Shown: piece by piece, positions 10,249 to 54,185 of the stretch
How the letters are laid out: every line of letters begins with the position of its first letter
Numbering within the stretch: position 1 is the stretch's first letter
Source of the DNA: Escherichia coli
GTDB lineage: Bacteria; Pseudomonadota; Gammaproteobacteria; Enterobacterales; Enterobacteriaceae
NCBI RefSeq assembly: GCF_030013205.1
Contig: NZ_CP122648.1
Direction: 5' to 3' (one strand)
DNA: 64,000 nucleotides
Notes under the pieces: generated by a model
Database searches by the model: none
What the model saw: the letters and a program-made list of their open reading frames with translations, nothing else
Told to the model about the DNA's origin: nothing
Program-made: the position numbers and the translations under genes

Positions 10249-10324
10249 TGGTGCCCGGACTCGGAATCGAACCAAGGACACGGGGATTTTCAATCCCCTG
10301 CTCTACCGACTGAGCTATCCGGGC
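10249..10324 (-). tRNA. pheV: tRNA-Phe (GAA)
   Basis: Exact 76-nt reverse complement of the remembered E. coli tRNA-Phe with anticodon GAA and CCA end; pheV rather than pheU by synteny with yqgA-speC. Confidence 0.95.
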
Positions 10325-29714: not shown

Positions 29715-29780
29715 TGCCTGATGCGCTACGCTTATCAGGCTTACAAATGTAGTCATTCACGCCGCATCCGGCAATAAGGA
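29715..29780. repeat. REP (repetitive extragenic palindrome) cluster
   Basis: TGCCTGATGCGCTACGCTTATCAGGC and CGCCGCATCCGGCAATAAGG match the E. coli REP consensus. Confidence 0.55.
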
Positions 29781-51761: not shown

Positions 51762-52781
51762 ATGACCGTACGCGTAGCGATAAATGGCTTCGGTCGCATC
51801 GGGCGTAATGTGGTTCGTGCTTTGTATGAATCCGGACGTCGGGCGGAAATTACCGTGGTGGCAATCAACGAACTGGCGGATGCTGCGGGCATGGCGCATT
51901 TGTTGAAATATGACACCAGCCATGGCCGTTTTGCATGGGAAGTACGACAGGAACGCGATCAACTTTTTGTTGGTGATGACGCCATCCGCGTATTGCATGA
52001 ACGTTCACTGCAATCGCTCCCCTGGCGTGAACTTGGCGTTGATGTAGTCCTCGACTGCACCGGCGTATATGGCTCCCGCGAACATGGCGAAGCGCATATT
52101 GCCGCCGGGGCTAAAAAAGTGCTCTTTTCACATCCTGGCAGTAACGATCTCGATGCGACCGTTGTTTACGGCGTCAATCAGGATCAACTTCGTGCGGAAC
52201 ACCGCATCGTTTCTAACGCTTCCTGTACCACGAATTGCATAATTCCCGTCATCAAATTGTTAGATGATGCGTACGGTATTGAGTCCGGCACTGTGACCAC
52301 AATTCACTCCGCCATGCACGATCAACAGGTTATTGATGCATACCATCCTGACCTGCGTCGCACCCGGGCAGCCAGCCAGTCGATCATTCCGGTCGATACT
52401 AAACTGGCCGCCGGTATCACACGATTTTTTCCGCAATTTAACGATCGCTTTGAAGCGATTGCGGTACGTGTGCCAACCATAAATGTGACGGCAATCGATT
52501 TAAGCGTGACGGTGAAGAAACCTGTAAAAGCCAATGAAGTCAACCTGTTGCTGCAAAAAGCAGCACAAGGTGCATTTCATGGTATAGTTGACTATACGGA
52601 ATTGCCGTTGGTCTCTGTAGATTTTAACCACGATCCGCATAGTGCCATTGTCGATGGTACTCAAACCCGGGTCAGTGGCGCACACCTGATCAAAACGTTG
52701 GTCTGGTGCGATAACGAATGGGGCTTTGCTAACCGAATGCTCGACACGACGTTAGCTATGGCTACTGTTGCTTTCAGGTAA
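51762..52781 (+). CDS. epd: erythrose-4-phosphate dehydrogenase
   Basis: 339 aa from [16 protein letters not shown]; six-frame ORF trimmed by 28 aa. Confidence 0.9.
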
Positions 52782-52830: not shown

Positions 52831-53994
52831 ATGTCTGTAATTAAGATGACCGATCTGGATCTTGCTGGGAAACGTGTATTTATCCGTGCGGATCTGAACG
52901 TACCAGTAAAAGACGGGAAAGTAACCAGCGATGCGCGTATCCGTGCTTCTCTGCCGACCATCGAACTGGCCCTGAAACAAGGCGCAAAAGTGATGGTAAC
53001 TTCCCACCTGGGTCGTCCTACCGAAGGCGAGTACAACGAAGAATTCTCTCTGCTGCCGGTTGTTAACTACCTGAAAGACAAACTGTCTAACCCGGTTCGT
53101 CTGGTTAAAGATTACCTCGACGGCGTTGACGTTGCTGAAGGTGAACTGGTTGTTCTGGAAAACGTTCGCTTCAACAAAGGCGAGAAGAAAGACGACGAAA
53201 CCCTGTCCAAAAAATACGCTGCACTGTGTGACGTGTTCGTAATGGACGCATTCGGTACTGCTCACCGCGCGCAGGCTTCTACTCACGGTATCGGTAAATT
53301 CGCTGACGTTGCGTGCGCAGGCCCGCTGCTGGCAGCTGAACTGGACGCGCTGGGTAAAGCACTGAAAGAACCTGCTCGCCCGATGGTGGCTATCGTTGGT
53401 GGTTCTAAAGTATCTACCAAACTGACCGTTCTGGATTCCCTGTCTAAAATCGCTGACCAGCTGATTGTTGGCGGTGGTATCGCTAACACCTTTATCGCGG
53501 CACAAGGCCACGATGTGGGTAAATCCCTGTACGAAGCTGATCTGGTTGACGAAGCAAAACGTCTGCTGACCACCTGCAACATCCCGGTTCCGTCTGATGT
53601 TCGTGTAGCAACTGAGTTCTCTGAAACTGCACCGGCTACCCTGAAATCTGTTAACGATGTGAAAGCTGACGAGCAGATCCTGGATATCGGTGATGCTTCC
53701 GCTCAGGAACTGGCTGAAATCCTGAAGAATGCGAAAACCATTCTGTGGAACGGTCCGGTTGGCGTGTTCGAATTCCCGAACTTCCGCAAAGGTACTGAAA
53801 TCGTGGCTAACGCTATCGCAGACAGCGAAGCGTTCTCCATCGCTGGCGGCGGCGACACTCTGGCAGCAATCGACCTGTTCGGCATTGCTGACAAAATCTC
53901 CTACATCTCCACTGGCGGCGGCGCATTCCTCGAATTCGTGGAAGGTAAAGTACTGCCTGCAGTAGCGATGCTCGAAGAGCGCGCTAAGAAGTAA
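52831..53994 (+). CDS. pgk: phosphoglycerate kinase
   Basis: 387 aa from [25 protein letters not shown]; six-frame ORF trimmed by 21 aa. Confidence 0.95.
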
Positions 53995-54002
53995 AAAATC
54001 AC

Positions 54003-54028
54003 AGGGCAGGGAAACCTGCCCTTGTTTC
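54003..54028 (+). terminator. hairpin after pgk (partial terminator or processing site)
   Basis: AGGGCAGG-gaaa-CCTGCCCT followed by a short T-rich tract. Confidence 0.55.
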
Positions 54029-54097
54029 AGCGCGCTTTTAAAGCACGCACTTTTTCATACTCTAAATAATTCGAGTTGCAGGAAGGCGACAAGAGAG

Positions 54098-54185
54098 TGA
54101 ATCCCCAGGAGCTTACATAAGTAAGTGACTGGGGTGAGCGAACGCAGACGCAGCACATGCAACTTGAAGTATGACGAGTATAAGG
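54098..54185. repeat. ERIC/IRU-like intergenic repeat (short form)
   Basis: TGAATCCCCAGGAGCTTACATAAGTAAGTGACTGGGGTGAGCGAACGCAG... matches the remembered ERIC core; pgk-fbaA intergenic. Confidence 0.55.

What the first reader, a model, noticed from the sequence alone, without database searches (positions are those of the whole stretch)
54098..54185. ERIC/IRU-like repeat in the pgk-fbaA intergenic region
The sequence matches the core of the enterobacterial repetitive intergenic consensus as I remember it, in its short form. It is a known repeat class, noted for completeness.
Basis: partly seen in the sequence, partly recalled or inferred. Interest (0 to 1): 0.2.

Follow-up and report, generated by a model that had tools for sequence, protein, structure and literature searches.

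The report
Full-length ERIC repeat between pgk and fbaA
This is an ordinary, already known kind of small mobile repeat (an ERIC element): a complete 127-base copy between two E. coli glycolysis genes that is copied into their shared messenger RNA, folds into a long hairpin, and marks a published RNA 3' end.

Summary
The finding is real and its family assignment is right. Its extent and the label "short form" are wrong.

- **Identity.** Window 54056-54182 (+) is a complete 127-nt ERIC/IRU element. It aligns without gaps, end to end, with the published E. coli consensus (112/127) and with a Salmonella copy (117/127). The 44-nt core, which holds both ERIC-PCR primer sites, matches exactly at 54097-54140.
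- **Insertion site.** Relatives with an empty site (Salmonella, Klebsiella, Citrobacter, Enterobacter, Phytobacter and others; spacers of 83-109 nt) show insertion at a TA, 26 nt upstream of the fbaA start codon.
- **Distribution.** The copy is present in 5417 of 5426 complete E. coli genomes. E. albertii carries the true short form, with a 72-nt internal deletion.
- **Same site elsewhere.** Sequence-distinct ERICs occupy the same TA, in the same orientation, in Lelliottia/Citrobacter sp. FP75 and in an unnamed soil/plant-associated clade.
- **Structure.** The RNA hairpin (-48.9 kcal/mol, z = -6.8) is supported by compensatory changes.
- **Expression.** Published Term-seq data place an RNA 3' end at ERIC position 84 (window 54139), at the foot of the core hairpin, in three growth conditions.

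Known family, low interest.

The parts
54056..54182 (+). Complete 127-nt ERIC (IRU / RU-1) element. The + strand is the orientation of the Hulton / Wilson & Sharp consensus, and it is also the transcribed strand of the operon.
   Evidence: Gapless end-to-end alignment to the published consensus: 112/127 to E. coli, 117/127 to SeRU-1.
54097..54140 (+). ERIC core carrying the ERIC1R (reverse complement) and ERIC2 primer sites.
   Evidence: Exact 44-mer match, 0 of 100 shuffles. Primer sequences confirmed in 246 papers.
54103..54134 (+). Apical inverted repeat, the stem-loop of the core (arms 54103-54116 and 54121-54134).
   Evidence: Inverted repeat I4. Helix 5 of the minimum-free-energy fold. 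96% of cells paired across 11 copies.
54057..54080 (+). Left terminal inverted repeat (basal stem, 5' strand).
   Evidence: Inverted repeat I1, 24 nt, 79% complementary to 54158-54181. Helices 1-2 are 96-99% paired, with 7 compensatory pairs.
54158..54181 (+). Right terminal inverted repeat (basal stem, 3' strand).
54056..54057 (.). Left copy of the duplicated TA target. It now reads CA here and in E. albertii.
   Evidence: Comparison with empty sites, for example Phytobacter ...CCCTTTTT-TA-AGGCCCGACGATACAG.
54181..54182 (.). Right copy of the duplicated TA target.
54139..54139 (+). Published RNA 3' end inside ERIC (element position 84), at the last paired base at the foot of the core hairpin.
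   Evidence: Term-seq on MG1655, coordinate 3071314 (-), found in LB OD 0.4, LB OD 2.0 and M63 (PMC7815308 Supplementary file 1). Mapped to the window.
54003..54027 (+). Context: hairpin H1 plus a U-rich tail just after the pgk stop codon. This is the 'primary' pgk 3' end (window 54026).
   Evidence: searches (the simple consensus scan scored this stem as terminator-like only on the - strand; -17.1 kcal/mol), and Term-seq 3071427 (-). The hairpin is conserved across Enterobacteriaceae.
54030..54055 (+). Context: hairpin H2 (54030-54048) plus a U-run (54051-54055) that abuts the ERIC left end.
   Evidence: -8.2 kcal/mol. Conserved in relatives with an empty site.
54183..54208 (+). Context: conserved 26-nt fbaA leader (AGGCCCGACGATACAGGAC...) containing an AGGA that I read as the likely ribosome-binding site.
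   Evidence: Conserved in filled and empty loci alike.
52831..53994 (+). Context: pgk.
54209..55288 (+). Context: fbaA.

Best explanation
Shown:
- Window 54056-54182 is a full-length ERIC, a non-autonomous miniature inverted-repeat element.
[quoted passage not shown] - The copy is essentially fixed in E. coli and is shared, in internally deleted form, with E. albertii.
- It lies on the transcribed strand in the consensus orientation. As RNA it folds into a long imperfect hairpin.
- In vivo, an RNA 3' end accumulates at element position 84, the 3' foot of the core stem-loop.

Inferred:
- Transcripts that read through the pgk hairpin H1 are cut in the single-stranded 3' internal loop of ERIC (positions 85-102), or are trimmed back to the core hairpin.
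- That would leave a pgk mRNA capped by a protective 3' stem-loop, and a separate fbaA segment.
- The element would then act as an intercistronic processing and stabilising structure, much as REP hairpins and the Yersinia ERICs are reported to.
- Most relatives work without it, so the fitness effect may be small.

My estimates: about 0.97 that this is a full-length ERIC insertion, about 0.45 that the processing/stabiliser reading is right, and about 0.25 that the effect is adaptive.
For: - **Identity.** Exact core. Gapless 127-nt alignment to the consensus printed in PMC2759123 Table 1a.
- **Hairpin.** -48.9 kcal/mol, z = -6.8, 0 of 200 shuffles as stable. Across 11 ERIC copies, 93.7% of cells pair and 12 pairs show compensatory changes, against 32-38% pairing when the partners are slid. 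The fold also holds across the same-site copies.
- **Insertion at TA.** The spacer is empty, 83-109 nt, in Citrobacter werkmanii, Kluyvera, Enterobacter cloacae, Phytobacter, Pluralibacter, Salmonella and Klebsiella.
- **Fixed in E. coli.** 5417 of 5426 complete genomes hold at least 80% of the spacer. The ERIC is identical to the K-12 copy.
- **Multi-copy.** Median 6 megablast places per genome. 11 places in one 4.9-Mb E. coli chromosome, and 341 plasmid-collection records. A copy identical at 124-125 of 127 positions lies next to another gene.
- **Co-transcription.** No start site was found in the spacer by 5'RACE (PMC2759082). No promoter-like site was found.
- **RNA 3' end at 54139.** Three conditions, 24,000-49,000 average reads, comparable with the pgk primary 3' end. 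No U-tract follows the position. No Rho-termination region is listed near it.
- **A second case.** The ERIC in the aceF-lpd spacer also carries a 3' end just after its core hairpin.
- **Precedent.** Reviews report that Yersinia ERICs modulate the stability of flanking mRNA in an orientation-dependent way through RNase E.
Against: - Most Enterobacteriaceae, Salmonella and Klebsiella included, have an empty site and an 83-109-nt spacer. The element is therefore dispensable for operon function.
- E. albertii has lost the whole core, including position 84, which argues against strong selection on it.
- The Term-seq 3' end could be an incidental decay intermediate. Because ERIC is repeated, some reads could in principle be mis-assigned from a near-identical copy.
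- No nuclease dependence, half-life or protein-ratio data for this copy were available to me. The key operon paper (Bardey et al. 2005) and the ERIC papers (Hulton 1991; Wilson & Sharp 2006; De Gregorio 2005) are not in the held library.
Confidence: 0.85

Rival explanations
1. Neutral relic. The element is a full-length ERIC but has no role at this locus, and the RNA 3' end is only a by-product of a stable hairpin sitting in a highly expressed mRNA.
For: Empty sites in most genera. Loss of 72 nt, including the core, in E. albertii. pgk and fbaA RNA and protein levels change together.
Against: - Near-fixation in E. coli.
- The same TA is occupied in the same orientation in at least three lineages.
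- In the unnamed soil/plant-associated clade the element has persisted across species that differ at 13-28% of fbaA third codon positions, and the basal stem stays almost invariant.
- The 3' end is reproducible in three conditions.
Confidence: 0.4
2. Evolutionary rival. A single ancient insertion in an ancestor of the Enterobacteriaceae, followed by many precise excisions, rather than repeated insertion at a preferred TA.
For: Same site and same orientation in every filled lineage. Divergence between the same-site copies (24-37%) is no larger than expected for old non-coding DNA.
Against: - The E. coli copy is 97.6% identical to an ERIC at another locus and 92% identical to a Salmonella copy elsewhere, but only 63-76% identical to the same-site copies of other genera.
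- Filled lineages are separated by many lineages with clean empty sites.
- Citrobacter sp. FP75 is filled, while C. werkmanii is empty even though its first 480 nt of fbaA are 96% identical.
- Homogenisation of ERIC copies within a genome could mimic this pattern.
Confidence: 0.3
3. The element is the transcription terminator or attenuator of pgk.
For: It is a strong hairpin downstream of pgk, and an RNA 3' end lies inside it.
Against: No U-tract follows either the core stem or the basal stem. The pgk 'primary' 3' end maps to hairpin H1 at 54026, upstream of ERIC. Relatives with an empty site keep H1 and H2.
Confidence: 0.05
4. It carries an internal promoter for fbaA, or is an independent small-RNA gene.
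For: A sub-threshold Rfam match to the Vibrio antisense RNA family V_AS5 (38.9 bits, E = 2.5e-6).
Against: No promoter-like site in 53800-54400. 5'RACE found no start site in the spacer. The Rfam score is far below the gathering score of 96 and reflects shared ERIC-type sequence.
Confidence: 0.03
5. A short-form, partial ERIC.
For: None at this locus in E. coli.
Against: All 127 positions align without gaps. The short form exists only in E. albertii.
Confidence: 0.01

Closest known systems
ERIC / IRU / RU-1 (Sharples & Lloyd 1990; Hulton et al. 1991; Wilson & Sharp 2006)
   Same: Length of 127 nt. 88% identity to the E. coli consensus with an exact core. Terminal inverted repeats, long hairpin, TA at the insertion site, intergenic and co-transcribed position, multiple copies. 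It is a member of this family.
   Different: Nothing of substance. The left TA copy now reads CA. The right half (positions 93-107) follows the Salmonella SeRU-1 variant rather than the E. coli consensus.
Yersinia ERICs as mRNA-stability elements (De Gregorio et al. 2005, as summarised in PMC2229807 and PMC3184786)
   Same: Co-transcribed between two genes. The RNA hairpin is associated with processing, and an RNA 3' end lies in the 3' half of the element.
   Different: RNase E dependence and an orientation effect were not tested for this copy. I could not check which of their 'A' and 'B' orientations this one is. My inference is 'A', from two indirect lines. The copy that abuts a stop codon is in the opposite orientation, and my own reading of the sequence finds a GAAUU motif, of the kind RNase E prefers, only in the reverse strand. 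This is unverified.
REP / BIME hairpins as 3' stabilisers of upstream mRNA
   Same: An intercistronic repeat hairpin with an RNA 3' end at its foot. The proposed action is as a barrier to 3'-to-5' exonucleases.
   Different: An unrelated sequence family. No REP consensus occurs in this spacer; REP-type matches lie elsewhere in the window.
Rfam RF02818 V_AS5 (Vibrio RNA AS5)
   Same: Full-length alignment to model positions 1-129. It shares the GAGUGAAU..CC and GUGACUGGGGUG.GCGAACGC blocks.
   Different: 38.9 bits against a gathering score of 96, so it is not a member. No model in Rfam release 15 reached its gathering score on this element.
Correia / NEMIS elements of Neisseria
   Same: A miniature inverted-repeat element with TA duplication, co-transcribed and folding as a hairpin (table in PMC2229807).
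   Different: A different sequence family and host. RNase III processing of Correia transcripts is from my own memory and was not checked or tested here.

Membership tests
ERIC / IRU / RU-1 | About 127 bp, with end-to-end similarity to the family consensus | tested here: met
   Gapless 127-nt alignment: 112/127 to the E. coli consensus, 117/127 to SeRU-1.
ERIC / IRU / RU-1 | Conserved central inverted repeat (the ERIC1R / ERIC2 primer sites) | tested here: met
   Exact 44-mer at 54097-54140, 0 of 100 shuffles. Primers confirmed.
ERIC / IRU / RU-1 | Terminal inverted repeats and a long imperfect hairpin, kept by compensatory changes among copies | tested here: met
   Inverted repeats I1 and I4. 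-48.9 kcal/mol, z = -6.8. 93.7% of cells paired and 12 compensatory pairs, against 32-38% in slid controls.
ERIC / IRU / RU-1 | TA at both ends, with TA target-site duplication | tested here: met
   Empty sites read ...TTTTT-TA-AGGCCCG... (Phytobacter) and ...TTTTC-TA-ACGGCCG... (Enterobacter). The filled site reads CA-[TAC...GTA]-TA, so the left copy carries one substitution. Lelliottia, at the same site, has a TA on each side (TTCAT-TA-CAC...TGTG-TA-TA-ACGG; its left end is 1 nt shorter than the consensus).
ERIC / IRU / RU-1 | Extragenic but inside a transcription unit | tested here: met
   Between the pgk stop codon and the fbaA start codon. No start site in the spacer. RNA 3' ends on the operon strand lie inside it.
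ERIC / IRU / RU-1 | Several dispersed copies per genome, and presence across Enterobacteriaceae | tested here: met
   Median 6 places per E. coli genome. 11 places in one chromosome and 341 records from Salmonella, Escherichia, Klebsiella, Citrobacter, Rahnella and others. Copies in Yersinia, Hafnia and Lelliottia.
ERIC short form (internally deleted ERIC) | An internal deletion that leaves only the ends | tested here: not met
   No gap in the E. coli copy. The feature is met only by the E. albertii copy, with 55 nt left.
REP / BIME | A GC-rich palindrome of about 35 nt with the GCC(G/T)GATGCG motif | tested here: not met
   No match in the spacer. Matches lie at 29760, 35777 and 39300 only.
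Intrinsic terminator | A GC-rich stem directly followed by a U-tract | tested here: not met
   The scan found no such site within ERIC. The basal stem is followed by AAGGCCCG and the core stem by GAGCGAAC.
Rfam RF02818 V_AS5 | A score at or above the curated gathering threshold (96 bits) | tested here: not met
   38.9 bits. The gathering-threshold scan of the whole window returned only a tRNA.
Yersinia-type regulatory ERIC (De Gregorio model) | Orientation-dependent, RNase E-mediated change in the stability of the upstream mRNA | not testable with these tools
   Only a Term-seq 3' end is available. No nuclease-mutant or half-life data exist for this copy.

The most novel reading that the evidence does not exclude
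The TA 26 nt upstream of fbaA, just past the hairpins that follow pgk, is a recurrent ERIC landing site. ERICs were acquired there independently at least three times in Enterobacteriaceae: in Escherichia, in Lelliottia/Citrobacter sp. FP75, and in an unnamed soil/plant-associated clade. The orientation is always the same. The element is retained because its hairpin provides an intercistronic processing and 3'-end-protecting module that uncouples the fates of pgk and fbaA mRNA, and the ERIC in aceF-lpd plays a parallel role.
Probability: 0.25. Interest if true: 0.45.

Novelty: already known. Interest (0 to 1): 0.17.

Why it matters
The practical consequences are modest.

- **Annotation.** This is a textbook ERIC copy in a well-studied operon, yet the RefSeq K-12 record shows no repeat feature there, and no Rfam release 15 model reaches its gathering score on it. 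Automated pipelines will therefore keep flagging it as unexplained.
- **Gene expression.** The Term-seq 3' end at the foot of the core hairpin, with the parallel case in aceF-lpd, gives a concrete and testable handle on a question that is still poorly answered for E. coli: whether ERICs shape the relative expression of genes within central-metabolism operons.
- **Mobility.** Repeated occupancy of one TA in several genera bears on how these elements, whose transposase is unknown, choose their targets.

Tried and rejected
- **Primary ERIC papers.** Wilson & Sharp 2006, Sharples & Lloyd 1990 and De Gregorio 2005 are not held. I took the consensus from Delihas 2007 Table 1a instead. I could not confirm that this copy is listed in their tables.
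- **Literature linking ERIC with pgk/fbaA.** Nothing relevant turned up.
- **Nuclease papers.** The RNase E/III tiling-array paper does not mention pgk, fbaA or ERIC. The RNase III cleavage paper has no held supplements and does not mention them.
- **Rfam.** Only sub-threshold matches were found, to V_AS5 and to a Brucella small RNA that I take to be a chance match (E = 0.3, 19.9 bits against 114).
- **Promoter scan.** Nothing in the spacer.
- **Viral-contig scan.** A scan with a 14-mer from the core returned mostly chance hits. Only 7 of 120 loci held real ERICs.
- **Covariation within the soil/plant-associated clade alone.** Too few sequences: 2 compensatory pairs and a positive covariation term. 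I do not claim selection from it.
- **Other ERICs in the window.** None.
- **REP motif in the spacer.** None.
- **The De Gregorio 'A' and 'B' orientations.** I could not verify which is which and give only an inference.

Full report
**Context.** The window around the finding is the E. coli epd-pgk-fbaA-mscS-argO region, with all genes on the + strand: epd 51762-52781, pgk 52831-53994, fbaA 54209-55288. It corresponds to MG1655 3,068,000-3,075,000 on the opposite strand. The pgk-fbaA spacer is 53995-54208, 214 nt. This matches the 214 nt reported by Olvera et al. 2009 (PMC2759082). Across the spacer the window differs from K-12 at two bases, 54041 and 54050, and both lie outside the repeat.

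**Checking the observation.** The 44-nt ERIC core is the reverse complement of primer ERIC1R followed by primer ERIC2. It occurs once, exactly, at 54097-54140 on the + strand, and none of 100 dinucleotide-preserving shuffles gave a match. Both primer sequences appear in 246 held papers. The primary ERIC papers are not in the library. Delihas 2007 (PMC2759123, Table 1a) prints the 127-nt E. coli consensus of Wilson & Sharp 2006 as its reverse complement, together with a Salmonella copy called SeRU-1. Both align with window 54056-54182 end to end and without a gap: 112/127 and 117/127 identical, with blastn E = 1e-47 for SeRU-1 against the 64-kb window. The element is therefore a full-length ERIC. 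No other ERIC is present in the window.

**Anatomy.**
- Terminal inverted repeats lie at 54057-54080 and 54158-54181. A central inverted repeat lies at 54103-54116 and 54121-54134.
- As RNA, the + strand, which is the operon's sense strand, folds into one long imperfect hairpin of -48.9 kcal/mol. The z-score is -6.8 and none of 200 shuffles folded as well.
- The complementary strand folds less well, at -38.6 kcal/mol. This fits the several G-U pairs in the sense orientation.
- I aligned 11 ERIC copies: this one, the two published sequences, same-site copies from two other lineages, copies from Yersinia and Hafnia, and four from viral contigs. In this set 93.7% of cells form standard pairs and 12 pairs show changes on both sides. 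When the 3' partners are slid by 1-3 columns, only 32-38% of cells pair and 0-3 pairs show such changes.
- Two smaller hairpins lie upstream of ERIC in the spacer. H1 is at 54003-54022 (-17.1 kcal/mol) with a U-rich tail. H2 is at 54030-48 (-8.2 kcal/mol) with a U-run at 54051-55 that abuts the ERIC left end.
- Downstream, a conserved 26-nt leader with an AGGA, which I read as the likely ribosome-binding site, runs to the fbaA ATG.

**Insertion site and history.** One scan of species-representative genomes with FbaA returned 80 loci.
- **Empty sites.** In most Enterobacteriaceae the spacer is 83-109 nt: Citrobacter werkmanii 88, Kluyvera 87, Enterobacter cloacae 92, Phytobacter 83, Pluralibacter 109. 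H1, H2 and the leader are kept and no ERIC is present. Salmonella Senftenberg (101 nt) and Klebsiella pneumoniae (97 nt) are also empty.
- **Target.** Phytobacter reads ...CCCTTTTT-TA-AGGCCCGACGATACAG... and the window reads ...CACTTTTT-CA-[TACTC...GAGTA]-TA-AGGCCCGACGATACAG.... This is insertion at a TA with TA duplication, and the left copy now carries a T-to-C change.
- **Escherichia.** E. albertii has the same junctions, including the CA, but a 72-nt internal deletion leaves 55 nt. The remnant still folds through the terminal repeats, at -13.2 kcal/mol. The insertion therefore predates the split between E. coli and E. albertii. The spacer with ERIC is present at 80% coverage or more in 5417 of 5426 complete E. 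coli genomes.

**The same site is occupied in other lineages.**
- Lelliottia amnigena and 'Citrobacter sp. FP75' carry a full ERIC at the same TA in the same orientation. The two copies are 90.6% identical to each other.
- MAG CTSoil_132 and six metagenome contigs carry a more diverged ERIC at the same place and in the same orientation. I call this group the unnamed soil/plant-associated clade, judging from the MAG's name and the metagenome accession series; the sample types were not looked up.
- One further contig (L270) has a degenerate remnant ending ...ACGGGTATA at the junction.
- The window's copy is 97.6% identical to an ERIC at a different locus, directly after a 477-aa transporter gene. 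It is 92% identical to SeRU-1. It is only 74-76% and 63-68% identical to the same-site copies of the other two groups.
- Filled lineages are separated by lineages with clean empty sites. FP75 is filled, while C. werkmanii is empty even though its first 480 nt of fbaA are 96% identical.
- I read this as repeated insertion at a preferred TA, with a probability of about 0.6. One old insertion followed by many precise losses, or homogenisation of ERIC copies within genomes, remains possible.
- Same orientation in all groups is suggestive, but with three or four events it is not significant.

**Expression and mechanism.**
- No promoter-like site lies in 53800-54400, and 5'RACE found no start site in the spacer. 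fbaA is therefore read from upstream promoters through ERIC. pgk and fbaA RNA and protein levels move together.
- Term-seq on MG1655 (Adams et al. 2021, PMC7815308, Supplementary file 1) lists a 'primary' pgk 3' end at 3071427 (-). That is window 54026, in the U-rich tail of H1.
- The same table lists an 'orphan' 3' end at 3071314 (-) in all three conditions: 24,316 average reads in LB OD 0.4, 48,771 in LB OD 2.0 and 35,983 in M63.
- I mapped the printed 61-mer to the window and to the K-12 locus. The 3' end is window 54139, ERIC position 84, the last paired base of the inner helix (42-43 with 83-84) at the foot of the core stem-loop.
- No U-tract follows this position, and no Rho-termination region is listed at 30710xx-30714xx. 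Processing is therefore more likely than termination.
- A 3'-to-5' exonuclease arriving from downstream should stall first at the 14-bp basal helix. A 3' end at position 84 thus suggests an endonucleolytic cut in the single-stranded 3' internal loop (positions 85-102), with or without trimming. That step is an inference.
- The only other ERIC-core sequence in that table is in the aceF-lpd spacer (127845 +, 67 nt before lpd, scored as not Rho-dependent). It also carries a 3' end a few nucleotides after its core hairpin. No 3' end is listed on the reverse-complement strand of any ERIC core.
- Reviews summarise De Gregorio et al. 2005 as showing that Yersinia ERICs, co-transcribed with flanking genes, alter the stability of upstream mRNA in an orientation-dependent way through an RNase E site.
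- The best-supported working model is an intercistronic hairpin that yields a pgk mRNA ending in a protective stem-loop and a separate fbaA segment.
- Against any strong role: most genera lack the element, and E. albertii has deleted its core.

**Comparison with known families.** Every defining ERIC feature I could test is met, so this is a member of the family and not a variant. It is not a REP/BIME element, not an intrinsic terminator, and not a member of any Rfam family. The only notable match, to the Vibrio family V_AS5, scores 38.9 bits against a gathering score of 96 and reflects shared ERIC-type sequence. The RefSeq MG1655 record lists no repeat feature in this spacer.

**Verdict.** The corrections are the extent (54056-54182) and the form (full length). 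The additions are the TA insertion site shown by empty-site comparison, the true short form in E. albertii, occupancy of the same site in other genera, and a published RNA 3' end at the foot of the core hairpin. What rests on my memory rather than on a tool result is marked as such: the content of Hulton 1991, Wilson & Sharp 2006, De Gregorio 2005 and Bardey 2005 beyond what quote.

Noticed in passing
L073:2359-2500 (E. albertii pgk-fbaA spacer): The same ERIC insertion, with the same CA/TA junctions, but with a 72-nt internal deletion that leaves a 55-nt short form. The remnant still folds through the terminal repeats (-13.2 kcal/mol).
   Followed up: yes
L308:1153-1280 (Lelliottia amnigena); L003:2348-2474 (Citrobacter sp. 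FP75); L013, L204, L268, L215, L257, L238, L231 (unnamed soil/plant-associated clade); L270: Sequence-distinct ERICs, and one degenerate remnant, occupy the same TA upstream of fbaA in the same orientation. The non-Escherichia filled alleles also share a TTCAATT motif just upstream of the element, which empty sites lack. I have no explanation for that motif.
   Followed up: partly
MG1655 127845 (+), aceF-lpd spacer (outside the window; from PMC7815308 Supplementary file 1): A second E. coli ERIC, in another central-metabolism operon, also carries a Term-seq RNA 3' end just after its core hairpin. The end was found in three conditions and is scored as not Rho-dependent.
   Followed up: partly
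L196:2438-2564, L146:380-506, L197:130-256: An ERIC identical to the window copy at 124-125 of 127 positions lies about one nucleotide after the stop codon of a 477-aa transporter gene (YbhI-like, from memory), in the opposite orientation relative to that gene. This implies recent copying or homogenisation among E. coli ERICs.
   Followed up: partly
L137:6457-6729: An ERIC on a viral contig is interrupted at two internal points by extra sequence of about 67 and 85 nt, which looks like a 'long form'.
   Followed up: no
window 54027-54203 (-): A 58-aa open reading frame on the opposite strand contains the 42-aa frame that Delihas 2007 noted in the reverse complement of ERIC (YTRHTSSC...NYLEY). 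It is most likely a by-product of the repeat and not a gene.
   Followed up: no
window 54055-54174 (+): A sub-threshold but full-length match to Rfam RF02818 V_AS5 (Vibrio RNA AS5; 38.9 bits, E = 2.5e-6). This suggests that the Rfam family was built on Vibrio ERIC-type repeats.
   Followed up: no
window 54003-54055 and the orthologous spacers in L002-L016 and L202-L305: Two hairpins after pgk (H1, GGGCAGG/CCTGCCC or GGCGGGG/CCCGCC; H2, GCGCGC/GCGCGC) are conserved across Enterobacteriaceae, with paired changes between the two H1 variants. H1 carries the published pgk 3' end. H2 is missing in the soil/plant-associated clade that carries the diverged ERIC.
   Followed up: partly
L281 (77-nt spacer): In this metagenome contig the position of H1 is taken by TACCCTAAATAATT, which resembles an ERIC left end. 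It may be a remnant of a separate insertion, or chance.
   Followed up: no
window 29760-29772 (-), 35777-35789 (+), 39300-39312 (+): Matches to the REP-type motif GCCGGATGCGGCG. The count is not above chance (3 found, 1.0 expected; 9 of 100 shuffles gave at least 3).
   Followed up: no
window 10252-10324 (-): A tRNA gene (Rfam RF00005, 68.3 bits), the only match in the window that reaches a gathering threshold.
   Followed up: no
plasmid collection records NZ_CP141089.1, NZ_LN868944.1, CP125156.1, NZ_CP077332.1: Several records filed as plasmids in PLSDB carry chromosomal pgk and fbaA genes, and some are chromosome-sized (4.9-5.4 Mb). They were useful here as named sources, but they look misclassified.
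   Followed up: no
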